Below, piece by piece: positions 2,835-32,446 of a DNA stretch of 64,000 nucleotides. The first letter of the stretch is position 1. Each line of letters begins with the position of its first letter. The DNA comes from Patescibacteria group bacterium. GTDB lineage: Bacteria > Patescibacteriota > WWE3 > UBA101185 > UBA10185. Below the pieces are notes generated by a model, which saw only the letters and a program-made list of their open reading frames with translations, was not told the origin of the DNA and ran no database searches. The DNA is taken from assembly GCA_026004595.1 (NCBI GenBank), contig BPJL01000001.1, positions 26,486 to 90,485 of the forward strand. Reading direction: 5' to 3'. The position numbers and the translations under genes were made by a program.

Positions 2835-3866
2835 ATGAAAATATTGGCAATTGAAACATCGTGCGATGAAACTGCATGCGCTGTAGTGGAAGATGGTGTT
2901 AAGGAGCTGGCTTCTGTAGTAGCTTCGTCAAAGGAACTACATGAGGCGACGGGCGGAGTTGTGCCTGAAGTGGCTTCAAGAAAGCAGATGGAGTTTATGA
3001 TGCCGGTATTGGAAAAGACGGTTGAGGATTACCGCCAAAAGATGGGGTTTGAGGGCAGGGAGCAGGTTGTTGAGTCAATTGACGCATTGGCTGTGACTGT
3101 TGGGCCTGGACTGATAGGCTCTTTGGTTGTAGGGGTTACAACAGCAAAGGCTCTGGCTTTGGCTTGGGAGAAACCATTGATACCTGTAAATCATCTAATC
3201 GGACATATTTACGCAAATTTTGTGGATAGCCAAAAAAAAGTGGAGTTTCCAGCAGTTTGCTTGCTGGTTAGCGGAGGGCACACCGATTTGGTTTTGATGA
3301 GGGGGCATGGTGAATTTGAGTATCTTGGGGGAACTTTAGATGACGCGGCCGGGGAATGTTTTGACAAGGTTGCTCGTATGATGGGGATTTCAAAATATCT
3401 AGGAGGTCAGTTACTGTCTGAGAAAGCGGCAGGGTGCGAAAAGGCATTTCCGGATAAACTCTTTCCGAGGCCGATGATATTTTCCGATGATTATGACTTC
3501 TCCTTTTCCGGGCTTAAAACCGCTGTTAAAAGATACATCGACGGTGGAGAAAGGGACATACCCTGCACAGCCAGAGAATTTGAAGAGGCAGTTGTGGATG
3601 TTTTAGCTGTTAAAACTATGAAAGCGGTGAAAAATTTTAGGGTTAAATCGCTGTTGATTGGGGGAGGAGTCTCGGCTAACAGAAGGTTGCGAGAAAGGCT
3701 AAGAGAAGAAGCGGAGAAAGTTGGTGTTTTTTTGCACTTACCTCCCCCGAGACTTTGTACAGACAATGCAGTTTATATAGCCTCGTCGGCTTATTTCAAT
3801 AACAAGAAAGTTAAACTGCAGGATATAAAGGCCGACCCGTCATTGGGAATAATGGGAAGGCTTTAA
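2835..3866 (+). CDS. tsaD: tRNA N6-adenosine threonylcarbamoyltransferase TsaD (Kae1/Gcp family)
   Basis: N-terminus MKILAIETSCDETACAVV is the canonical TsaD start. HxxH-type metal site (NHLIGHIY) and SGGV..N glycine motifs are present. The start is taken at the internal Met of the 2817 ORF. Confidence 0.85.
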   Translation: MKILAIETSCDETACAVVEDGVKELASVVASSKELHEATGGVVPEVASRKQMEFMMPVLEKTVEDYRQKMGFEGREQVVESIDALAVTVGPGLIGSLVVGVTTAKALALAWEKPLIPVNHLIGHIYANFVDSQKKVEFPAVCLLVSGGHTDLVLMRGHGEFEYLGGTLDDAAGECFDKVARMMGISKYLGGQLLSEKAAGCEKAFPDKLFPRPMIFSDDYDFSFSGLKTAVKRYIDGGERDIPCTAREFEEAVVDVLAVKTMKAVKNFRVKSLLIGGGVSANRRLRERLREEAEKVGVFLHLPPPRLCTDNAVYIASSAYFNNKKVKLQDIKADPSLGIMGRL

Positions 3867-5110
3867 GAGAGTTTATTGACGAGTTCTTCAAGGGTGTAAA
3901 GTTTTCCTTCGCTTTCCTTGCGTCCCTTCAATTCTATTTTAGCCCCCGTTTTTTTGGACACCACAGCTCTGTAGGGAATTCCTATTAGATCGGCGTCTGA
4001 AAACTTGACCCCGGCTGTCGTATCTTCCCTGTCGTCGTATAGAACCTCGATGTTACTTTTGGTCAAGACTTCATAAACTTTTTCGGCCAGTTCTTTAGTA
4101 CTACTATCTTCAAAATTTAATCCGACCAAGTGCACTTTCGCCGGAGCAACGCTTTCGGGCCACACTAAACCCTTATCGTCACCATGTAGTTCTACGATTG
4201 TGGCCATAACTCTTGCAGGCCCTATACCGTAGGCACCCATAATTACCGGCTTTCTCTTTCCTTCTTCGTCTGTGAAGTAAAGGCCTGCAGGTTCGGAAAA
4301 ACGTGTTCCTTGTTTGAATATGTTACCGACCTCAATCGCCCTCACCTCTTCCAAATCTTGTTTATTGATTCCTAAATCCGCAAGGACCCCGTCCGTTAAA
4401 ACCTCTTTGTTTACGGCGACTTTCTTTTTGCGATCAAGATAAATGGTATCTTCTCCTGATTCGCATACTGTCTGAAATTCATGGCTGTATTTGCTAAAGG
4501 TTCCACCAGAAGCGAAGGTTAAATATGTTTGTTCTCCTATTCCCACGCGGGAAAAAGAATTGAAGTATGCTACTTTGACCTTTTCATAAAAGGCGTCAAG
4601 GTCTTCTTGTGTCTTATTGAACGAGTAAAGATCTTTCATCAAAAACTCTCGTGTCCTCAAAAGGCCGTTCTTAGCTCTTACCTCGTTTCTAAATTTTGTC
4701 TGGAATTGGAAAGGGTAGAGAGGCAAATCTTTGTGAGAATGTATTTGTTTTGACATCAAGGCGGCAAGAGGTTCCTCATGAGTTGGGGCCAATCCGACTT
4801 CCGTACCGGTATTTATCTTTGTTTTGAACCATATATCTACAACACTGTCGTCCCACCTTCCAGATTTTTTCCAGTTGTCGGGGTTCTGAAGAGCAGTCAT
4901 TTGAAGTTCCTGGCCGCCGATGGATACCATCTCTTCTCGGATTATCCCAACAATTTTATTTAGAACCCGAAGTCCTAAAGGCAGAAAGCAGTAGACGCCC
5001 GCCATTTCCTTATAAATGTAGCCACCCCGGGTTAAAAGCTGGGCGTTTTTGCTAACCTCATCTTTAGGCGCCTCTTTTAGTGTTTTGCCTACCATTAAGC
5101 TATAGCGCAT
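3863..5110 (-). CDS. proS: Prolyl-tRNA synthetase (class II)
   Basis: N-terminus MRYSLMVGKTLKEAPKDEV...LLTRGGYI...GVYCFLPLGLRVLNKIVGIIREEM aligns with the bacterial ProRS N-terminus (E. coli MRTSQYLLSTLKETPADAE...). Class II motifs and a C-terminal anticodon-binding region are present. The start is taken at the second in-frame Met. Confidence 0.8.
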   Translation of the reverse strand: MRYSLMVGKTLKEAPKDEVSKNAQLLTRGGYIYKEMAGVYCFLPLGLRVLNKIVGIIREEMVSIGGQELQMTALQNPDNWKKSGRWDDSVVDIWFKTKINTGTEVGLAPTHEEPLAALMSKQIHSHKDLPLYPFQFQTKFRNEVRAKNGLLRTREFLMKDLYSFNKTQEDLDAFYEKVKVAYFNSFSRVGIGEQTYLTFASGGTFSKYSHEFQTVCESGEDTIYLDRKKKVAVNKEVLTDGVLADLGINKQDLEEVRAIEVGNIFKQGTRFSEPAGLYFTDEEGKRKPVIMGAYGIGPARVMATIVELHGDDKGLVWPESVAPAKVHLVGLNFEDSSTKELAEKVYEVLTKSNIEVLYDDREDTTAGVKFSDADLIGIPYRAVVSKKTGAKIELKGRKESEGKLYTLEELVNKLS

Positions 5111-5172
5111 TGATTTATTATATACTATCTGATTGAGAGGCCGCTTTTTTTGTGATAATCTCAAGCAATATT

Positions 5173-7422
5173 ATGGATAAACGTTACGACCACAAAGTGA
5201 AAGAAGCTGAAGTTCTCAAGAAATGGGAGGACGCCAAAGCTTTTACAGCCGATCCCAAGTCCGGCAAAAAACCCTATACAATTATCCTTCCTCCACCAAA
5301 CGCTTCTGGAAAAATGCATGTTGGAAATGTTCTGATGATAGCTATAGAGGACCTGCTTATACGTTGGAAAAGAATGAAAGGATACGAAGCTTTGTGGGTT
5401 CCGGGTACAGATCACGCAGGATTTGAATCCCAAACCACGTTTGAAAGAGAGCTGAGGGTAAAAGGGAAATCTAGATTTGATTACGACCGAGACACTTTTT
5501 ACAAAATGATGATGGAGTTTGTTCTTAGCAACAAGGGCCAAATTGAAGAGCAGATAAGAAGCATGGGAGCGAGTGTTGATTGGACGCGCTACACATTTAC
5601 TCTTGAAGAAAAATCCATAAACACCGTAGTAAATACATTTAAGAAAATGGTTAACGAGGGCTTGATTTATAGATCTGATTATGTTGTTAACTATTCTTTT
5701 AAGTATGGGACAACTTTTTCGGATGCCGAGACTGTGATGAAAGAACAGACCGACCCTCTTTATTACATTAAATACGGACCTTTGACAGTTGCTACAGTTA
5801 GGCCCGAAACGAAACTTGGCGATACTGCTTTGGCGGTTAATCCCCGTGATGAGAGATATAAAGATTATGTAGGAAAAGAAATTGTTTTTGAAGACGTTAC
5901 CGGACTAAATCGCTTGAAGGTTATAGCTGATGAATATGTTGACTCCGCTTTTGGCACAGGGGTTTTGAAAGTTACCCCAGCCCATTCCAAGGACGATTAT
6001 GAGATAGGATTAAGGCACGGTTTGGAGATTAAGCAGGTAATAGGAACAGACGGAAAGATGACTTCTTTGGCAGGAAAATATGCCGGTATGAAAGTGCTGG
6101 ATTGCCGTGCCCAAATTGTTGAAGATTTGAAAAAACTCGGATCCCTGGAAAAAATAGATGAGAGTTATGTGCACACTGTGCCCGTTGATTATAGAACTGA
6201 AGACTACATTGAACAGCTCGTAATTCCCAATTGGTTTGTGAGAGTTGAGGAGTTGAAAAAAATGGCTTTGGATGTGGTGAAGAATGGAGATGTTAGGATA
6301 TTTCCCAAGTGGCAGGAAATAACTTACACCAGATGGGTGGAGAATATGAGGGACTGGGCAATTTCCCGCCAGATAGTTTGGGGAATAAGGGTTCCCGCGT
6401 GGTACAACGTTGATGAAAATCCTGACATCACGGTAACGTTTTTGGCCGAAGGAGAGGTGGTAAGAGGCCAAGTTTCCGATTTGCTCCGCAGGTACGATTT
6501 AAAAGAAATATCCTCGGGGCTTCAATCTCTCACAGCTCCGAACAACGCGAATTATGTTATCAGCAAAGAATCGCCGGGAGACAGGTACCTTCCCGAAACC
6601 GACACTTTTGATACATGGTTTTCGAGCGGCCAGTGGCCATTGATAACTTTGGGGTATCCGGATTCTGAAGATTTTAAATACTTCTACCCAACGGATGTTC
6701 TTGAGACAGGCTGGGAAATTATAACAAGGTGGGTGTCCCGCATGATAATGTTCGGATGCTACCTAACCGGGAAAGCGCCATTCAGAGATGTTTATCTTCA
6801 TGGGAGGGTGATGGCCATTGACGGTAAGAAAATGAGCAAAAGCTTGGGTAACGTGATTAACCCTGAGGAGTATCAAGCCGAGTTTGGGACGGACGCTTTG
6901 CGCATGGGTATGATAAGCGGAACGGCAAATGGAAAGGACTTTGCCTTCCCACGAGATAAAGTTTTAGCATATCGAAATTTTTCCAACAAGATTTGGAATA
7001 TGGCCAGATTCTTAATTATGTTGGTCAATGAGGAGGGGTTGACCAAGAAGGATCTTCAAGATTTCAAGCCATGGAATTTACAAAGAGGAACTACCGATTT
7101 GGAGATGTATGAGGGATTTAAAAAACTGGTAAATAATGTGGATAAATCTTTGGGCAAGTATAGATTCTCTGACGCGGGGGACTTTATTTATCATTTTATG
7201 TGGGATGAGCTAGCCTCAAAATATATTGAGGAAGTCAAGGTGCGCGAAAATAGGGAAGACAAGATAAACGGTCTTAAAAATCTTGCTTATATATTTTCAA
7301 ATTGCTTGAAAGTACTGCACCCCTTCATGCCTTTTATAACCGAGGCAGTGTGGGGAGAATTAATAAAGGAAGGATTGATTAAGGGGAGACTTTTAGCAAA
7401 GACTGAGTGGCCGGGAGTTTGA
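5173..7422 (+). CDS. valS: Valyl-tRNA synthetase (class I, compact form)
   Basis: HIGH-like region PPPNASGKMHVGNV, the ValRS-typical PGTDHAG motif and KMSKS (KMSKSLGNVI) are present. At 750 aa it is shorter than canonical ValRS, which is compatible with reduced genomes. IleRS cannot be fully excluded without alignment. Confidence 0.7.
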   Translation: MDKRYDHKVKEAEVLKKWEDAKAFTADPKSGKKPYTIILPPPNASGKMHVGNVLMIAIEDLLIRWKRMKGYEALWVPGTDHAGFESQTTFERELRVKGKSRFDYDRDTFYKMMMEFVLSNKGQIEEQIRSMGASVDWTRYTFTLEEKSINTVVNTFKKMVNEGLIYRSDYVVNYSFKYGTTFSDAETVMKEQTDPLYYIKYGPLTVATVRPETKLGDTALAVNPRDERYKDYVGKEIVFEDVTGLNRLKVIADEYVDSAFGTGVLKVTPAHSKDDYEIGLRHGLEIKQVIGTDGKMTSLAGKYAGMKVLDCRAQIVEDLKKLGSLEKIDESYVHTVPVDYRTEDYIEQLVIPNWFVRVEELKKMALDVVKNGDVRIFPKWQEITYTRWVENMRDWAISRQIVWGIRVPAWYNVDENPDITVTFLAEGEVVRGQVSDLLRRYDLKEISSGLQSLTAPNNANYVISKESPGDRYLPETDTFDTWFSSGQWPLITLGYPDSEDFKYFYPTDVLETGWEIITRWVSRMIMFGCYLTGKAPFRDVYLHGRVMAIDGKKMSKSLGNVINPEEYQAEFGTDALRMGMISGTANGKDFAFPRDKVLAYRNFSNKIWNMARFLIMLVNEEGLTKKDLQDFKPWNLQRGTTDLEMYEGFKKLVNNVDKSLGKYRFSDAGDFIYHFMWDELASKYIEEVKVRENREDKINGLKNLAYIFSNCLKVLHPFMPFITEAVWGELIKEGLIKGRLLAKTEWPGV

Positions 7423-25389: not shown

Positions 25390-25778
25390 GGGGATGCCCA
25401 GGATTTGATTGAGTTCATTTTCGTGCAGTTGCAAGCAGGGGAGCTGAACCCTCAAATTTAGCGAAAAAATAAATGCTGATAGAGATGCATTTGTAGGTGT
25501 GCCAGCAATGGCCGCCGTTGCAGCCTGATTAATCGACGCTGCGGGTCCCAAAGTTTTTGCCCGGAAGAGCTTTTGGGGTCTAATAAATCCGGGAAGAGGT
25601 TTTTCCTGCTTTAGCCGCGCAGGAGCACCGGGGGTGAAAAGCCCGAAGATACTGGCTTACAGTAAAGTTAAAGAGGTTTTTCGAGCACCTGGCTTTGCTT
25701 AAGAAGAGCTCGGATAAGCTTGTAGATGCTGTATGAAAGGTTCTCAAGACGGGGGTTCGATTCCCCCCATCTCCACCA
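25390..25778 (+). ncRNA. ssrA: tmRNA (SsrA)
   Basis: 5' GGGGATG pairs with 3' CATCTCC-A-CCA as the acceptor stem. The 3' tRNA-like end GACGGGGGTTCGATTCCCCCCATCTCCACCA matches the tmRNA T-arm consensus. The internal reading frame ends ...GVPAMAAVAA-TGA at 25528, a typical hydrophobic degradation tag. The gene follows smpB. Confidence 0.8.
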
Positions 25779-29376: not shown

Positions 29377-29416
29377 TCTCCCTGACATTGTAGTTAGAAT
29401 AGAAGTGCGTGCGTAA

Positions 29417-29492
29417 GCACCCGTAGTTCAGAGGATAGAACGCAGCGTTGCGGACGCTGAAGTCGGGGGTTCGAGTCCCTCCGGGTGCACCA
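29417..29492 (+). tRNA. tRNA-Arg (anticodon GCG by loop position)
   Basis: Acceptor GCACCCG/CGGGTGC. D-arm GTTCAGAGGATAGAAC. Anticodon stem CAGCG/CGCTG with loop TTGCGGA. T-arm GGGGGTTCGAGTCCCTC. Discriminator A followed by CCA. Confidence 0.8.
29472..29492 (+). repeat. Direct repeat copy 1 (attL-like): 21-nt 3' end of tRNA-Arg, CGAGTCCCTCCGGGTGCACCA
   Basis: An identical 21-mer recurs at 31754-31774, about 2.3 kb downstream. Confidence 0.7.
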
Positions 29493-29519
29493 AAACTAAC
29501 TTGTTCGAAATTGACTGCT

Positions 29520-29640
29520 CCGCACGGCAGAAGCGAAACTAAACGCTCGGGCGGGCAAAAAGGAAGGGGGTTGGGGGGAAGGAATTTTTGCCCGCCCGCG
29601 TTTTCCGCCGCCGAATTTCGTATTTCGCTTTGCGAAATGC
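29520..29640. repeat. GC-rich terminal inverted repeat, left copy, containing the perfect 13-bp-stem hairpin GGGCGGGCAAAAA-N23-TTTTTGCCCGCCC (29549-29597)
   Basis: The reverse complement matches 31465-31585 with a ~73-nt identical core (GGGCGGGCAAAAATTCCTTCCCCCCAACCCCCTTCCTTTTTGCCCGCCCGAGCGTTTAGTTTCGCTTCTGCCG). Its GC content is far above that of the flanking genome. Confidence 0.65.
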
Positions 29641-29714
29641 GCCGCAAGAAAATATGGAGTTGTGTTTGCCCCTCCCTCCCGTGCGCACACAACAGATTTT
29701 TTACTCCCTAAAAT

Positions 29715-29790
29715 TTTGACTAATAACATATCTTGTAGTATCATCTTGATAGTACCAAAGTATTGAGCATACTGCAACCTAATGGTACTA
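29715..29790 (+). promoter_or_regulatory. Putative sigma70-type promoter (TTGACT-17nt-TATCAT) plus an inverted-repeat operator TAGTACCA-N25-TGGTACTA upstream of the xre-like gene
   Basis: TTGACT at 29715-29720 and TATCAT at 29738-29743 with 17-nt spacing. A palindromic half-site pair sits at 29750-29757 and 29783-29790, immediately upstream of the HTH regulator start (29804). Confidence 0.3.
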
Positions 29791-29803
29791 CTATAGATAA
29801 ATT

Positions 29804-30013
29804 ATGTCAAAACAAGATTTTCCATTGGCAAAAAACCTCAAGAAATTGAGGGAGAAGAAAGGGCTTTCGCAAGATCGTCTCGCCAAGCTCGCCGATGTTG
29901 CCAACAACACGATTATTAAGATTGAGCAGGGCGAGAATATAAACCCAACGCTTGATACGCTAAAGAAAATGGCGAAAGCCCTTGATGTTAGTGTTGATGA
30001 GTTAATTCAATAA
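29804..30013 (+). CDS. XRE-family helix-turn-helix transcriptional regulator
   Basis: A 69-aa protein whose HTH_3 core is LKKLREKKGLSQDRLAKLADVANNTIIKIEQGENINPTLDTLKKMAKALDVSVDELI. Confidence 0.7.
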   Translation: MSKQDFPLAKNLKKLREKKGLSQDRLAKLADVANNTIIKIEQGENINPTLDTLKKMAKALDVSVDELIQ

Positions 30014-30017
30014 AACT

Positions 30018-30971
30018 ATGGATATTATTTTTTACATCGGGATATTTCTGTTCGTAATCGGTGCTTGGCAAGCGTTTATGCGAGGTACGCATTCTGAAGT
30101 GATTAGTGGTCTCTCGCTTACATTGGGGACGATTTTGGTTTTTGTTGGAAATTGGCGACTGGGATTGTTCTTTATCTTCCTTTTTGCGAGCTGGTTTTTG
30201 TTAATGCAATTATTCAGATTTTCTACCTACCACAAATATTTTTTCAAAATTTCACCTCTCTTAATTGGATATGCCGTTTTGGTTGCTTTCTTACTTCGAT
30301 ATTTTAATTTTCAAAATCTTTTTTGGTGGTATCTCGTCCTTTCGTCTCTTTTCTTATTTATCAACCATAGAAAGCAACTCAAATCCAAAGACGCAGTTGA
30401 TATGTTAGCTGGTCTTGATAAAAGTGTTACGGACACAATACCGGACGGAGAAGCCAAACAGCACGTCGAAAAGGAATTATCCTTATCTTTTAGTCGGACA
30501 ATAAAATATCATCTTTTAAGTGCAATAGTTTTCATCATAAGTTTTGTTCTGGCGTTTTCCTATTTTTCTGGCGGCATTAAAACCGATCAAATTTTTTCTC
30601 AAATTCCAACGGTGTCTGTTAGCGGTAGCAATATTGGACACTTCAGCAAATCAATAGATTTTGCCAATAAAGCGACAAAAATTTCTAATAATGGCGGCGC
30701 ATACCAGCAAATGGGAGAGGAAGAAATAAAAGAGATGGTTGATAATTACAAACAAGCATTAACAGAAGCGAAGCAAGTTGATATTCAAAAACTTAATTCC
30801 GACCATCAAGGTTTTGGCGACCATTACAAAAATGAATTTATTGCCGGAGCCGAAATGTTTATAGAGGGTTTTGAAAAATCTGACGCTCAAAAATTTCTTC
30901 AGGGACAAGTTTTGCTTTCACAATGGGGCGATTGGTATGAAAAAAACTTTGACGCTATTCGTAAATTATAG
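30018..30971 (+). CDS. Hypothetical membrane protein (4 N-terminal TM helices plus a ~170-aa cytoplasmic domain)
   Basis: Begins 4 nt after the xre stop. The TM-rich N-terminus (W/F-rich) is followed by one more TM near residue 170 and a soluble C-terminus. No motif was recognised. Confidence 0.4.
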   Translation: MDIIFYIGIFLFVIGAWQAFMRGTHSEVISGLSLTLGTILVFVGNWRLGLFFIFLFASWFLLMQLFRFSTYHKYFFKISPLLIGYAVLVAFLLRYFNFQNLFWWYLVLSSLFLFINHRKQLKSKDAVDMLAGLDKSVTDTIPDGEAKQHVEKELSLSFSRTIKYHLLSAIVFIISFVLAFSYFSGGIKTDQIFSQIPTVSVSGSNIGHFSKSIDFANKATKISNNGGAYQQMGEEEIKEMVDNYKQALTEAKQVDIQKLNSDHQGFGDHYKNEFIAGAEMFIEGFEKSDAQKFLQGQVLLSQWGDWYEKNFDAIRKL

Positions 30972-30973
30972 CT

Positions 30974-31438
30974 ATGGCCAATAAAGAACAAATCGTAGAG
31001 CTTTCGTGGAATGTGAACGACTTACTGTCTCAATATGTCGCAATTCACGATGATATTTTCAAAACCTCAATTCGTCATGCAATACCAATTCCAGGAATTT
31101 TCAAGGCGATTGATTTTGGTGCTCATCTTGGGAAAGTTGAAAATATCATCCCTGAACTAGAGAATTGCGGCAGTAAAATAAAATCGCTTGCCGAAAGTGT
31201 GAATGGTCAGGAGCGAGAATATCTTGATTTACTCGCCCGATATGTTGGTGCGTTGATTGAGACAGTAAGTCGTCTAAAAGTCGTTGTAGGTGCGCTTTAC
31301 GCCAAGAGCCAAAGTTTTGTTAATTCAAAATACGATTGGAAAAATTATAAAAGCGACCTTGCCAGTTATGAGCAATCGGTGCAAGATTATATGGCAATTG
31401 GCGGAAGATTGAACGAACTTTTTGAGAAAGTAAAATAA
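30974..31438 (+). CDS. Hypothetical soluble protein (154 aa)
   Basis: Begins 2 nt after the upstream stop, so it is translationally coupled. Predicted helical. No motif was recognised. Confidence 0.35.
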   Translation: MANKEQIVELSWNVNDLLSQYVAIHDDIFKTSIRHAIPIPGIFKAIDFGAHLGKVENIIPELENCGSKIKSLAESVNGQEREYLDLLARYVGALIETVSRLKVVVGALYAKSQSFVNSKYDWKNYKSDLASYEQSVQDYMAIGGRLNELFEKVK

Positions 31439-31464
31439 TGCGGCGCGCCAGTTACACTGGCACG

Positions 31465-31585
31465 AAATTTGGCGGCGGCGGAAAGCGAGGGCGGGCAAAA
31501 ATTCCTTCCCCCCAACCCCCTTCCTTTTTGCCCGCCCGAGCGTTTAGTTTCGCTTCTGCCGCGCGAAGCGCGGCAATGGGTCAAT
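31465..31585. repeat. GC-rich terminal inverted repeat, right copy (hairpin at 31489-31537)
   Basis: Inverted partner of 29520-29640. A further GC-rich tract (31680-31753) follows, before the duplicated tRNA fragment. Confidence 0.65.
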
Positions 31586-31753
31586 TTCTTTCAAAAAAGG
31601 TTCGCGCGAAGTGTATAATTACAGCACCAAGAAATTTCGACAGGCCTTAAGCGCATAGCGAAATTTATTTGTGTGCAAAGAAGACTCGAATGGCGCAGGC
31701 GCGGCGGCGCCGAGCCGGGGCCGAGCGGATCGCCAGCAGGCGAGAACGCGTGG

Positions 31754-31774
31754 CCGAGTCCCTCCGGGTGCACC
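31754..31774 (+). repeat. Direct repeat copy 2 (attR-like): duplicated tRNA-Arg 3' fragment CGAGTCCCTCCGGGTGCACCA
   Basis: Exact 21/21 match to 29472-29492. No tRNA body is present upstream of this copy, so it is a fragment and not a second tRNA. Confidence 0.7.
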
Positions 31775-31802
31775 AATAAACTAAAAGGTTAAAAAAGAAT
31801 TT

Positions 31803-32420
31803 ATGTTAATCGCTTTTGAAGGCGGAGAAGGCTCCGGAAAAGGAACACAAATTTGTCTGCTTCAAGAAGTGCTGGAAAGCAAAGGGTTGAAGGTGCTCTC
31901 AATTATTGAACCCGGTGGAACGGAAGTAGGCAAGGCAATTAGAAACATTCTCCTGGACAGAAAGGACCTCGATCTTCTTGGCATTACTGAAGCATTCTTA
32001 TTTTCCGCATCCCGCGCTCAGCAAGTTAGGACTGTAACTAGACCCGCATTGGAAGAAGGAAAAATTGTACTTTCGGACAGAAGTTTTTATTCAACTTATG
32101 CCTATCAAGGTTATGGAAGAAAACAGCCCATTTCAATTCTGAAAAAAATGACGGAGCTAGCTGTAGGCGAAACAAAGCCCGATCTTGTATTTCTTCTTGA
32201 TTTGCCTCCGGAAATTGGTTTGGCAAGGAAAAAGAGTCAAAATCAGATCAACCGTCTAGACGCCGAAGCTATGGAATTTCATCAAAGGGTTAGAGCGGGG
32301 TATTTAACTTTAGCCAAAAAAGATGCTAAAAAGTGGAGAGTTATTGACGCCGCTAAGCCGCCCGAACAGATACATTCCGAAATATTATTTGCGCTTGAGC
32401 CCGTTTTATTCCCAAACTAA
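31803..32420 (+). CDS. tmk: Thymidylate kinase
   Basis: MLIAFEGGEGSGKGTQ P-loop, and a DR(S/Y) motif (LSDRSFYSTYAYQG). Confidence 0.85.
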   Translation: MLIAFEGGEGSGKGTQICLLQEVLESKGLKVLSIIEPGGTEVGKAIRNILLDRKDLDLLGITEAFLFSASRAQQVRTVTRPALEEGKIVLSDRSFYSTYAYQGYGRKQPISILKKMTELAVGETKPDLVFLLDLPPEIGLARKKSQNQINRLDAEAMEFHQRVRAGYLTLAKKDAKKWRVIDAAKPPEQIHSEILFALEPVLFPN

Positions 32421-32446
32421 GCCAATTGACTTAAACTAATATCTAC

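What the first reader, a model, noticed from the sequence alone, without database searches (positions are those of the whole stretch)
29417..31778. tRNA-Arg-associated 2.3-kb insertion: 21-nt att-like direct repeat, ~100-bp GC-rich terminal inverted repeats, three-gene cassette, no integrase
The last 21 nt of tRNA-Arg (CGAGTCCCTCCGGGTGCACCA, 29472-29492) recur exactly at 31754-31774, the classic attL/attR signature of an element integrated into a tRNA 3' end. Just inside each boundary lies a ~100-nt GC-rich segment (29520-29640 and 31465-31585) that are reverse complements of each other with a ~73-nt identical core. Each segment contains a perfect 13-bp-stem hairpin (GGGCGGGCAAAAA...TTTTTGCCCGCCC). 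GC content here is far higher than anywhere else in the window, suggesting foreign origin. Between them are a promoter/operator, an XRE HTH regulator, a membrane protein (4+1 TM, 317 aa) and a 154-aa protein, tightly coupled. No integrase/recombinase gene is present, so this is either a non-autonomous (MITE/miniature-island-like) element mobilised in trans, or a decayed island that retained a functional regulator/membrane-protein/unknown module (for example an abortive-infection or exclusion cassette).
Basis: seen in the sequence. Interest (0 to 1): 0.75.

Follow-up and report, generated by a model that had tools for sequence, protein, structure and literature searches.

The report
Recombinase-less mobile gene cassette at tRNA-Arg
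This is a mobile gene cassette inserted at the end of a tRNA-Arg gene in a tiny-genome (CPR/WWE3) bacterium; it has lost its own recombinase gene by deletion and belongs to a widespread, apparently undescribed family of serine-recombinase elements that swap regulator-plus-cargo cassettes between conserved hairpin-bearing inverted repeats.

Summary
The repeats are real. The 22-nt tRNA-Arg 3' repeat and the ~100-nt GC-rich inverted repeat (IR) are at the stated places and are not chance.

**What it is.** The insertion is a deletion derivative of a tRNA-3'-end-targeting element driven by a large serine recombinase (LSR).
- L154 carries the same XRE, 317-aa and 154-aa cassette at 97% nt identity.
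- There it is complete: tRNA-Arg(tcg), a 112-nt arm, an LSR gene, an inverted copy of that arm, then IR, cassette, IR.
- The window keeps only the first 35 nt of the recombinase-side arm, fused to a truncated left IR.

**True ends.** They are the 6-7-nt core GCACCA(A) at 29487-29493 and 31624-31630. Relatives L149-152 have the empty site.

**The 22-nt repeat.** Its right copy belongs to an older block. A cassette-free relative (L153) also has that block, 94% identical over 88 nt.

**The IR hairpin.** It occurs on more than 120 metagenome contigs, with a nearly invariant 23-nt loop. It brackets XRE-led cassettes with varied cargo: restriction-modification, TIR, metabolic. Arms and cassettes recombine independently.

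**Open points.** The cargo function here is unknown, and so is the role of the hairpin.

The parts
29417..29492 (+). tRNA-Arg (anticodon gcg), the integration target; intact
   Evidence: ARAGORN; Rfam tRNA 66.8 bits
29487..29493 (+). Left copy of the short core GCACCA(A): the last 6 nt of the tRNA plus one A. This is the attL crossover region of the element.
   Evidence: Read from the sequence. Full relatives have the same junction, tRNA...GCACCA|AAACTGAC....
29493..29527 (+). Remnant (35 nt) of the recombinase-side arm X, which in relatives is the antisense of the LSR 3' end. The deletion junction with IR1a lies within 29510-29528, at the microhomology CCGC(A/G)CGG.
   Evidence: Three-way alignment with L154 attL-X and L154 IR1a. 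41-nt inverted match to L154 5205-5245.
29517..29622 (+). IR1a, the XRE-proximal inverted-repeat arm. It is truncated on its outer side by about 60 nt and contains hairpin H2 at 29548-29598 with the G-rich loop.
   Evidence: family alignment; comparison with the complete arms of L154/L156
29622..29638 (+). Type-A inner hairpin (ATTTCGCTTTGCGAAAT), which marks XRE-proximal arms in the family
   Evidence: Alignment A4; type-A copies are followed by XRE in 37 of 45 cases
29716..29744 (+). Promoter-like site TTGACT-17-TATCAT upstream of XRE (consensus match only)
29804..30013 (+). XRE/Cro-C1-type HTH regulator (69 aa), the conserved first gene of the family's cassettes
   Evidence: Pfam HTH_3 7e-18. 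PADLOC control-protein and capH models 1e-12 to 1e-14. About 70 homologues next to IR copies.
30018..30971 (+). 317-aa membrane protein: 4-5 TM helices plus a C-terminal four-helix bundle. Cargo gene of unknown function.
30974..31438 (+). 154-aa four-helix-bundle protein. Cargo gene of unknown function.
31447..31461 (+). Type-B inner hairpin (GCCAGTTACACTGGC) a few bases after the last stop codon; marks XRE-distal arms
   Evidence: RNAalifold on 36 distal arms: two stem pairs kept through double changes in 15 and 13 sequences
31462..31623 (-). IR1b, the complete XRE-distal arm. Hairpin H2 lies at 31488-31538 with the C-rich loop on the + strand. The outer part carries an outward-facing promoter-like site at 31590-31619.
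   Evidence: 169-nt match to the left arms of L154/L156/L158.
31624..31630 (+). Right copy of the core GCACCA(A), the right end of the element. Identity with other copies ends after GCAC (31627).
31630..31672 (+). Native tRNA-Arg downstream flank (the attB right side). Not part of the element.
   Evidence: Aligns with the sequence after tRNA-Arg in L149 and after the second repeat copy in L153
31673..31776 (+). Older GC-rich block (72% GC) that ends in the second copy of the 22-nt tRNA 3' end (31755-31776). Together with tmk it interrupts the native flank. It was not made by the cassette's integration.
   Evidence: 31688-31775 is 94% identical to a scar next to tRNA-Arg in cassette-free L153. 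GC peak. Fold z = -2.4.

Best explanation
Window 29493-31629 (about 2.14 kb) is a recombinase-deleted copy of an integrative element of candidate-phyla-radiation (CPR) bacteria that inserts at the 3' end of tRNA genes.

**Layout of complete family members**
- tRNA...GCACCA
- arm X (112-127 nt), which encodes the C-terminus of the recombinase on the other strand
- the large serine recombinase (LSR) gene, reading towards the tRNA
- an exact inverted copy of X plus the last 6 nt of the tRNA (TGGTGC)
- inverted-repeat arm IR1a
- a promoter, then an XRE regulator and variable cargo genes
- IR1b
- GCAC, then host DNA

**Shown**
- The window's ancestor had this layout at tRNA-Arg(gcg).
- A deletion of about 1.7 kb joined X to the similar outer part of IR1a, which lies in direct orientation. 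It removed the LSR gene, the inverted X copy and about 60 nt of IR1a.
- That left tRNA, 35 nt of X, the IR1a core, XRE, the 317-aa gene, the 154-aa gene and IR1b.
- Both recombination half-sites next to the core survive.

**Inferred**
- The copy is either fixed, or can move only with a related LSR supplied in trans.
- The outer 70-80 nt of each IR arm, together with X, forms the attachment site (attP).
- The conserved central hairpin and the flanking hairpins act as transcription insulators or terminators. They also act as the conserved sequence at which whole XRE-plus-cargo cassettes are exchanged between elements.
- XRE represses or times the cassette promoter, like a C (control) protein.
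- The membrane-protein and helical-protein pair is an accessory module. It may be a defence or exclusion module, but that has not been shown.
For: **Insertion and ends**
- Empty site in relatives L149-152: 193-aa gene, tRNA-Arg, native flank, with no cassette.
- The window sequence right after GCACCA at 31624-31629 aligns with that native flank.
- The same cassette occurs in other contexts: window 29517-31627 is 96.6-97.0% identical to L154-L161. The right-hand flanks of the window, L154 and L156 are all different and diverge right after ...ATTACAGCAC.

**Autonomous relative L154**
- It has tRNA-Arg(tcg) at 3523-3598 and a 547-aa ORF at 3484-5127 on the minus strand.
- That ORF carries Resolvase, Recombinase and Zn_ribbon_recom domains.
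- IR2 is 3593-3704 versus 5134-5245: 112 nt, 100% complementary, starting at the last 6 nt of the tRNA.
- IR1 arms of 136-169 nt follow.

**Deletion junction**
- The window follows L154's tRNA-X sequence up to ...TGCTCCGC(A/G)CGG.
- It then follows IR1a from CAGAAGCG onwards.

**Family-wide architecture**
- The loop is identical in 88 of about 145 copies.
- On 23 contigs with two copies, the copies are always inverted.
- XRE follows 37 of 45 type-A arms and 0 of 44 type-B arms. An LSR lies outside 10 of 19 type-A arms.
- In L058, L067, L086, L094 and L100, IR2 starts at the tRNA end.
- The hexamer at the outer edge of IR1 is the reverse complement of the neighbouring tRNA's 3' end, for example GACACCA and TGGTGTC in L128.

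**Cassette exchange**
- 27 locus pairs have outer arms at least 93% identical but unrelated first cargo genes. Their XRE proteins are mostly 30-60% identical.
- L155 carries the window's cargo with a left arm from another subfamily.
- In L134 the two arms match only over the 58-nt core.

**Cargo in relatives**
- Many restriction-modification genes, ThsB-TIR and RadC, plus metabolic genes.
Against: - No excised circle, empty-site read or inverted-orientation read was seen for the window's own species. All close assemblies carry the cassette or break inside the IR.
- The attP assignment rests on junction comparison only. No clear dyad symmetry was found around the core. LSR activity on these sites is untested.
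- The terminator role of the hairpin is not supported by the simple scan, because its loop is too long for the rule used.
- Single-sequence folds are only weakly better than shuffles (z from -0.7 to -2.6).
- PADLOC finds nothing for the 317-aa and 154-aa proteins. A defence role is therefore only guilt by association, and cargo in the family is not exclusively defence.
- Contigs assembled across 170-nt inverted repeats can be chimeric (L099, L090). Cassette orientation relative to the LSR cannot be trusted (L141).
Confidence: 0.8

Rival explanations
1. One reading: one 2.3-kb element bounded by the 21-22-nt tRNA-Arg 3' repeat as attL/attR. It was integrated by a tyrosine-type integrase that was later lost or acts in trans, and the IRs are its terminal inverted repeats.
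For: - The exact 22-nt repeat is not expected by chance.
- This is the classical signature of tRNA-targeting islands.
- L108 also has a 21-nt tRNA 3' fragment 64 nt beyond a distal IR arm.
Against: - The right repeat copy plus 66 nt upstream of it is present, 94% identical, next to tRNA-Arg in L153, which has no cassette.
- Native flank sequence lies between IR1b and that block.
- Other copies of the same cassette end at GCAC and do not carry the 31630-31776 segment.
- The autonomous relative encodes a serine recombinase, not a tyrosine one.
Confidence: 0.07
2. The IR arms are primarily copies of a structured non-coding RNA or a bidirectional terminator. They happen to flank operons and have no role in DNA mobility.
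For: - The sequence is very strongly conserved, including the 23-nt loop.
- The type-B hairpin just after the stop codon covaries.
- The mRNA-sense fold of the right arm has z = -2.6.
- Single copies are common on contigs.
Against: - There is no Rfam match, even at E = 1.
- The proximal copy lies between two divergent promoter regions (LSR and XRE), where it is not obviously transcribed.
- The outer edge of every arm coincides with an element/host or element/arm-X junction, and it carries the reverse complement of a tRNA 3' end.
- Arms within one element are 97-100% identical, while arms of different elements differ.
- A terminator role for the core hairpin is compatible with the best explanation and is included in it.
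Confidence: 0.1
3. The IR-flanked XRE-cargo segment is an invertible (phase-variable) cassette. A serine recombinase, or homologous recombination between the 100-170-nt arms, flips it and so switches expression of the cargo or of neighbouring genes such as tmk.
For: - The arms within an element are long and nearly identical.
- An outward-facing promoter-like site lies in the arm next to the core (31590-31619).
- One contig (L141) has the distal arm next to the LSR.
- De Bruijn unitigs of the window's species break exactly at the arms, leaving the inner segment as a separate unitig.
Against: - Unitig breaks are expected for any inverted repeat longer than k.
- In 10 of 12 contigs with an LSR, the XRE-proximal arm faces the LSR.
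- The window and the JGI assembly have the same orientation.
- L141 and L099 may be assembly chimeras.
Confidence: 0.15

Closest known systems
Integrative elements and prophages that use large serine recombinases (phiC31, Bxb1, TP901-1 integrases; SCCmec ccr; Tn4451 TnpX)
   Same: - The recombinase has Resolvase, Recombinase and zinc-ribbon domains.
- Insertion is site-specific, with only a very short shared core at the two ends (GCAC/GCACCA).
- The recombinase gene lies next to the attachment site.
   Different: - The target is the extreme 3' end of tRNA genes.
- The recombinase's C-terminal codons form one att arm.
- An exact inverted copy of the predicted attP sits inside the integrated element.
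- Arms of 170 nt with an ultra-conserved hairpin bracket a swappable XRE-led cassette.
- I found none of these features described (literature searches; otherwise my own knowledge).
Tycheposons and other tRNA-seeded genomic islands (bioRxiv 10.1101/2020.12.28.424599)
   Same: - tRNA genes act as seeds.
- Cargo is for defence or adaptation.
- Successive integrations leave partial tRNA copies and degenerate, integrase-less remnants next to the tRNA.
- The window shows this layering: the cassette, plus an older scar ending in a 22-nt tRNA fragment.
   Different: - Tycheposons mostly use tyrosine recombinases, with att sites of about 40 nt and a replication module.
- This family uses an LSR with a 4-7-nt core.
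- It has no replication genes and has the IR1/IR2 repeat system.
- The hosts are CPR bacteria, not marine cyanobacteria.
Integron gene cassettes
   Same: Variable cargo sits between conserved, hairpin-forming recombination-associated repeats. Cargo is shuffled independently of the platform.
   Different: - There is no IntI tyrosine recombinase and no attC or attI.
- The repeats are inverted pairs around a multi-gene, self-regulated (XRE plus promoter) cassette, not direct attC sites after promoterless ORFs.
C-protein (controller) regulated restriction-modification operons
   Same: - A small XRE/HTH gene leads the operon.
- It matches PADLOC control-protein models.
- Many family members carry R-M cargo behind it.
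   Different: - In the window the genes behind XRE are not R-M genes.
- C-box operators were not analysed.
MITEs / non-autonomous TIR transposons
   Same: A short element without its own enzyme, with inverted repeats near both ends, related to longer autonomous copies.
   Different: - The autonomous partner has a serine recombinase, not a DDE transposase.
- Insertion is site-specific at a tRNA end, without a target-site duplication of fixed length.
- The left repeat is internally truncated by the deletion that removed the recombinase.

Membership tests
LSR-driven integrative element (site-specific, tRNA 3' end) | Encodes a large serine recombinase (Resolvase + Recombinase + Zn ribbon) | tested here: not met
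   tblastn of 20 family LSRs against the whole 64-kb window gave no real hit. The feature is met in the sister copy L154, so the window copy is a derivative and not an autonomous member.
LSR-driven integrative element (site-specific, tRNA 3' end) | Inserted at a defined site that is empty in relatives | tested here: met
   L149-152 have tRNA-Arg followed directly by the native flank. The window flank resumes at 31630.
LSR-driven integrative element (site-specific, tRNA 3' end) | Same element ends in independent insertions; short common core at attL and attR | tested here: met
   The right end ...ATTACAGCAC is shared by the window, L154 and L156, which have three different flanks. GCACCA(A) is present at both ends in the window.
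LSR-driven integrative element (site-specific, tRNA 3' end) | Recombinase-dependent excision and integration at these sites | not testable with these tools
   Needs read-level data or biochemistry.
Classical tRNA island with tyrosine integrase | The displaced tRNA 3' fragment (about 20-40 nt) marks the far end of the same element | tested here: not met
   The 22-nt fragment and its 66-nt neighbour exist without the cassette in L153. They are separated from the cassette by native flank.
MITE / TIR transposon | Terminal inverted repeats shared with an autonomous DDE-transposase element; target-site duplication | tested here: not met
   The autonomous relatives carry an LSR. The ends are att-type junctions with a tRNA 3' end.
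Known structured RNA family (Rfam 15) | Covariance-model match to the IR arm | tested here: not met
   Only the tRNA matched at E <= 1 in 29380-31820. Nothing matched at gathering score.
Known anti-phage defence system (PADLOC 2.0) | Model match to the 317-aa or 154-aa protein | tested here: not met
   No hit at E <= 1. Only XRE matches regulator models. PHROGs gave no meaningful hit.
Serine-invertase switch (Hin/Gin type) | Both orientations of the IR-flanked segment present in one population | tested here: inconclusive
   Unitigs break at the arms. One possibly chimeric contig has the opposite arrangement (L141).
Integron cassette | attC site and IntI integrase | tested here: not met
   The repeats are inverted pairs and the recombinase is a serine type. 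No tyrosine recombinase lies adjacent.

The most novel reading that the evidence does not exclude
The family is an integron-like gene-shuffling platform specific to CPR bacteria.
- Each integrated element keeps an intact, inverted copy of its own attP between the recombinase module and the cargo module.
- Each module is therefore flanked by inverted half-sites.
- The ultra-conserved hairpin core then lets the serine recombinase, or recombination at the core, exchange or flip whole self-regulated XRE-plus-cargo cassettes between elements that target different tRNAs.
- On this reading the window copy is a parked cassette that can be picked up again.
Probability: 0.2. Interest if true: 0.85.

Novelty: new variant of a known kind. 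Interest (0 to 1): 0.62.

Why it matters
- Mobile elements of CPR/Patescibacteria are poorly charted, and these organisms have almost no genetic tools.
- This analysis defines a widespread element family, seen on more than 120 contigs from groundwater, sediment and bioreactor metagenomes.
- Its parts can be read precisely: the recombinase, the candidate attP and attB (tRNA 3' ends), a self-contained regulator-plus-promoter cassette, and conserved bracketing repeats.
- That gives testable site-specific integrases with natural tRNA landing sites in CPR genomes.
- It also gives a catalogue of cargo, rich in restriction-modification and TIR genes and including unknown pairs such as the 317-aa/154-aa module. 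That cargo marks what these reduced genomes trade horizontally.
- For the window itself, it corrects the boundaries of the insertion. A textbook-looking tRNA direct repeat turns out to be a scar of a different, older event.

Tried and rejected
- **Split SSV-type integrase.** I asked whether an integrase gene is split across the att site. The minus-strand ORFs over the two repeat copies are in different frames and have no recombinase similarity. Rejected.
- **Remnant of the LSR C-terminus at 31632-31754.** tblastn and blastn against the arm sequences of other loci gave nothing significant. The segment turned out to be native flank plus an older block.
- **Longer tRNA-fragment repeats in relatives.** A search of the fetched LSR loci for tRNA-fragment direct repeats of 13 nt or more found none. 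This fits a very short core, but no fetched contig clearly spans both ends.
- **Viral contigs.** Scans for the hairpin (exact and degenerate patterns) and for the 31700-block gave 0 hits.
- **Genome-contig scan** with the 317-aa family found only 3 loci.
- **Fold searches.** The 317-aa and 154-aa models hit only generic four-helix bundles. A PDB profile search found nothing. The AFDB library was unavailable.
- **Second cargo gene as a fixed partner.** It is not fixed. L016 and L023 pair the membrane protein with unrelated 160-aa and 204-aa proteins.
- **Dyad symmetry around the proposed attP core.** Only a loose similarity between arm X and the outer IR1 arm was seen.
- **G-U versus A-C asymmetry to choose the transcribed strand.** There were too few informative cases.
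- **Literature.** Searches found no description of the hairpin or of CPR serine-recombinase elements.


Full report
**1. Observation**

tRNA-Arg(gcg) lies at 29417-29492. Its last 22 nt, including one base after CCA, recur exactly at 31755-31776. Shuffled sequence gives no such match.

A 97-nt, 96% complementary inverted repeat (IR) joins 29517-29613 to 31473-31569. With indels it reaches about 29508-29622 and 31460-31585. Each arm holds a perfect hairpin, GGGCGGGCAAAAA-23 nt-TTTTTGCCCGCCC.

Between the arms lie four features:
- a promoter-like site at 29716-29744;
- an XRE-type HTH gene (HTH_3, E = 7e-18);
- a 317-aa membrane protein;
- a 154-aa protein. The last two match no family in Pfam, PADLOC or PHROGs.

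No recombinase gene exists anywhere in the 64-kb window.

The claim about GC is only partly right:
- The arms (0.63-0.65 per 100 nt) are the 4th-5th highest peaks.
- The highest peak (0.74) is a block at 31675.
- The insertion as a whole has the window's average GC.

**2. Host and empty site**

The window is 99.8% identical to a 768-kb JGI contig. Its proteins are named Patescibacteria in NCBI, and the nearest named relatives are candidate division WWE3.

Relatives L149-152 share 73% identity in the upstream 193-aa protein. In them that gene is followed by tRNA-Arg(gcg) and then directly by the Na+/H+ exchanger gene. They have no cassette, no repeat and no tmk.

The window sequence at 31630-31672 aligns with the sequence immediately after tRNA-Arg in L149. 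The DNA from the tRNA's CCA to about 31629 is therefore an insertion.

**3. The 22-nt repeat is not the cassette's att site**

A third relative, L153 (WWE3 GW2011_GWE1_42_16), has this layout next to tRNA-Arg:
- the tRNA;
- a GC-rich spacer of about 120 nt;
- a second copy of the tRNA's last 22 nt;
- the native flank, with no cassette.

Its last 88 nt are 94% identical to window 31688-31775, although the neighbouring proteins are only 68% identical.

In the window this block (31673-31776), together with tmk, interrupts the native flank downstream of the cassette. The repeat is real, but it belongs to an older or independent event.

This kind of layering next to a tRNA is described for tycheposon islands.

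**4. The true ends and the lost recombinase**

Looking up a 98%-identical homologue of the 154-aa protein returned the same three-gene cassette on contigs L154-L161. Window 29517-31627 is 96.6-97.0% identical to them.

The window, L154 and L156 share sequence up to ...TATAATTACAGCAC and then diverge into three unrelated flanks. The right end is therefore GCAC at 31624-31627. The full hexamer GCACCA plus A (31624-31630) repeats the tRNA's end (29487-29493).

L154 is a complete element, in this order:
- tRNA-Arg(tcg) at 3523-3598.
- Arm X, beginning AAACTGACTTGTTCGG...
- A 547-aa ORF on the minus strand, with Resolvase, Recombinase and zinc-ribbon domains.
- A 112-nt, 100% exact inverted copy of X. 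It includes the reverse complement of the tRNA's last six bases.
- A full 169-nt IR arm, then XRE, the 317-aa gene and the 154-aa gene.
- The second arm, then GCAC followed by host DNA.

A three-way alignment shows the deletion junction:
- The window follows L154's tRNA-X sequence for 35 nt (29493-27), up to TGCTCCGC(A/G)CGG.
- It then continues as IR1a from CAGAAGCG.
- X and the outer part of IR1a resemble each other and lie in direct orientation.
- Recombination between them would delete about 1.7 kb: the rest of X, the LSR gene, the inverted X copy and about 60 nt of the arm.

That is what is missing in the window. This deletion is the reason for 'no integrase'.

**5. The family**

- *Loop and host type.* The loop GGAAGGGGGTTGGGGGGAAGGAA is identical in 88 of about 145 copies. 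The contigs have 31-50% GC.
- *Two copies on one contig.* On the 23 contigs that carry two copies, the copies are always inverted, and 21 have the same polarity as the window. Within one element the arms are 165-200 nt long and 97-100% identical.
- *Two kinds of arm, told apart by their inner hairpin.* Type A is followed by an XRE gene in 37 of 45 cases. It has a divergent LSR outside it in 10 of 19 cases. Type B sits after the last cargo gene and is never followed by XRE (0 of 44).
- *Recombinase loss.* About half of the XRE-proximal arms therefore lack an intact LSR, so loss of the recombinase is common.
- *tRNA junctions.* In L058, L067, L086, L094 and L100 the LSR-side arm starts at the last 5-6 nt of a tRNA gene.
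- *Edge motif.* The first bases of the IR arm's outer edge (TGGTGC, TGGTGG, TGGCGG or TGGCTC) are the reverse complement of tRNA 3' ends. In L128 they match the adjacent tRNA exactly.

Each integrated element thus contains, between the LSR and the cargo, an inverted copy of the junction expected in the excised circle (IR1b-core-X). That junction would be attP. This is a direct reading of the sequences. Its function is unexplained.

**6. Cargo and modularity**

Among 108 cargo proteins behind XRE, the recognisable ones fall into two groups:
- *Mostly restriction-modification and defence-type genes:* N6 and N4 methylases, Eco57I-type, EcoRI methylase with GmrSD/HNH, Mrr, TdeIII, MvaI and MamI nucleases, plus ThsB-type TIR and RadC.
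- *Also metabolic or housekeeping genes:* GH5, GH130, an ABC transporter, queuosine salvage, and a class I tRNA synthetase.

Evidence that cassettes move as units, independently of the arms:
- 27 pairs of loci share outer arms at least 93% identical but have unrelated first cargo genes. Their XRE proteins are mostly only 30-60% identical.
- L155 carries the window's cargo with a left arm from another subfamily.
- The two arms of L134 match only over the 58-nt hairpin core.

Whole XRE-plus-cargo cassettes are therefore exchanged between platforms. The breakpoints lie in or near the conserved core. Whether the mechanism is homologous or site-specific recombination is not known.

The 317-aa gene also occurs without IRs:
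- next to tRNA-Leu in L016, with the same CCA-AAACTAA junction and a truncated XRE;
- next to tRNA-Ser in L026;
- beside a terminase gene in L023;
- in a non-CPR-like contig, L020, with a truncated right arm.

Its partner gene varies.

**7. What the repeats may do (inference)**

- The outer 70-80 nt of the arms and X are the best candidates for the recombinase's att arms, because every element/host and element/module junction falls at their edge.
- The type-B hairpin right after the last stop codon keeps its pairing through double substitutions in 13-15 of 36 sequences.
- That hairpin, the long GC stem and the U-rich tails fit a terminator or insulator role at both ends of the cassette. The simple terminator scan does not call them, and single-sequence fold z-scores are modest.
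- No Rfam family matches.
- The invariance of the 23-nt G-rich loop is unexplained. Protein binding or a G-quadruplex are guesses.
- In the window's subfamily the outer arm carries an outward-facing promoter-like site (31590-31619, TTCAAA-18-TATAAT). In full elements it would point into the LSR gene. At the distal end it points into host DNA, here towards tmk.

**8. Cargo of the window**

- The 317-aa protein models as 4-5 transmembrane helices plus a confident C-terminal four-helix bundle (pLDDT 76 overall, about 90 in the bundle).
- The 154-aa protein is a four-helix bundle (pLDDT 88).

A defence or exclusion role is a reasonable guess from the company the cassette keeps. I put it at about 0.35. 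No test supports it.

**9. Verdict**

The proposed att sites and the MITE-like reading are wrong.

The window copy is a new, degenerate member of an apparently undescribed variant of serine-recombinase integrative elements in CPR bacteria. I found no paper describing the hairpin or the family. That search covers only open-access text.

Noticed in passing
window 31673-31776; L153 6654-6800; L108 (about 130-290): A 'tRNA gene + 64-125-nt GC-rich spacer + 21-22-nt copy of the tRNA 3' end' recurs in three CPR genomes. The window and L153 versions share 88 nt at 94% identity, although the neighbouring proteins are only 68% identical. Both fold into a multi-hairpin structure better than shuffles (z = -2.4 and -2.95). 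It could be a minimal att scar, a mini-element or a small RNA.
   Followed up: partly
window 31777-32423: tmk (thymidylate kinase) sits between the 22-nt tRNA fragment and the rest of the native flank. It is absent from this position in relatives L149-153. The whole block 31673-32423 is bounded by TTTATT on both sides, so tmk seems to have moved here together with the GC-rich piece.
   Followed up: partly
window 63872-63982 (-): Rfam LOOT RNA match, 65.9 bits against a gathering score of 46.4, near the end of the window.
   Followed up: no
window 25390-25778 (+): tmRNA with tag peptide ADRDAFVGVPAMAAVAA next to smpB. Relatives have ADKEAFVGVPAMAAVAA.
   Followed up: no
L154 5134-5245; L058 7095-7219; L112, L098, L088: Every complete element carries, between the recombinase gene and the cargo, an exact inverted copy of the last 6 nt of the tRNA plus the recombinase's C-terminal coding arm, fused to the IR arm. 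This is an inverted copy of the predicted attP inside the integrated element. No known serine-integrase element that I am aware of has this.
   Followed up: partly
L155 3800-3990; L134 2388-2591 versus 4640-4843: Hybrid elements. The same cargo sits with an outer arm from another subfamily (L155). In L134 the two arms of one element come from different subfamilies and match only over the 58-nt hairpin core.
   Followed up: partly
L141 1-3762; L099; L090; L055: L141 has the XRE-distal arm next to the recombinase, which suggests either cassette inversion or a chimera. L099, L090 and L055 are palindromic contigs with 339-1718-nt terminal inverted repeats. These are probably assembler walks through the IR, so orientation statistics from short-read assemblies are unreliable.
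   Followed up: partly
L154 1-641 and 1653-1726; L068; L101: Second XRE-led cassettes occur close by: XRE + RadC next to tRNA-Pro in L154, and tandem or back-to-back cassettes in L068 and L101. One genome can therefore hold several family members.
   Followed up: no
IR arms and arm X in many loci (e.g. L058 5580-5640, window 31555-31575): Short GC-rich hairpins with 3-4-nt loops (GCCGCGC-TTCG-GCGCGGC, GCCGAGC-GAAG-GCTCGGC and others) are scattered through the arms and even through the recombinase's C-terminal coding region. Their stems vary between loci and they are absent from some subfamilies. They look like small inserted palindromes.
   Followed up: no
L019 versus L020, upstream of 6001: Two contigs with the identical 304-aa/154-aa pair and the same right flank have different left flanks. 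The homology to the window starts inside the XRE 3' end. This marks a recombination or deletion breakpoint in a host with higher GC (47%), labelled Zixibacteria by one source.
   Followed up: no
window 18955 region: The second-highest 100-nt GC peak of the window (0.67). Not examined.
   Followed up: no
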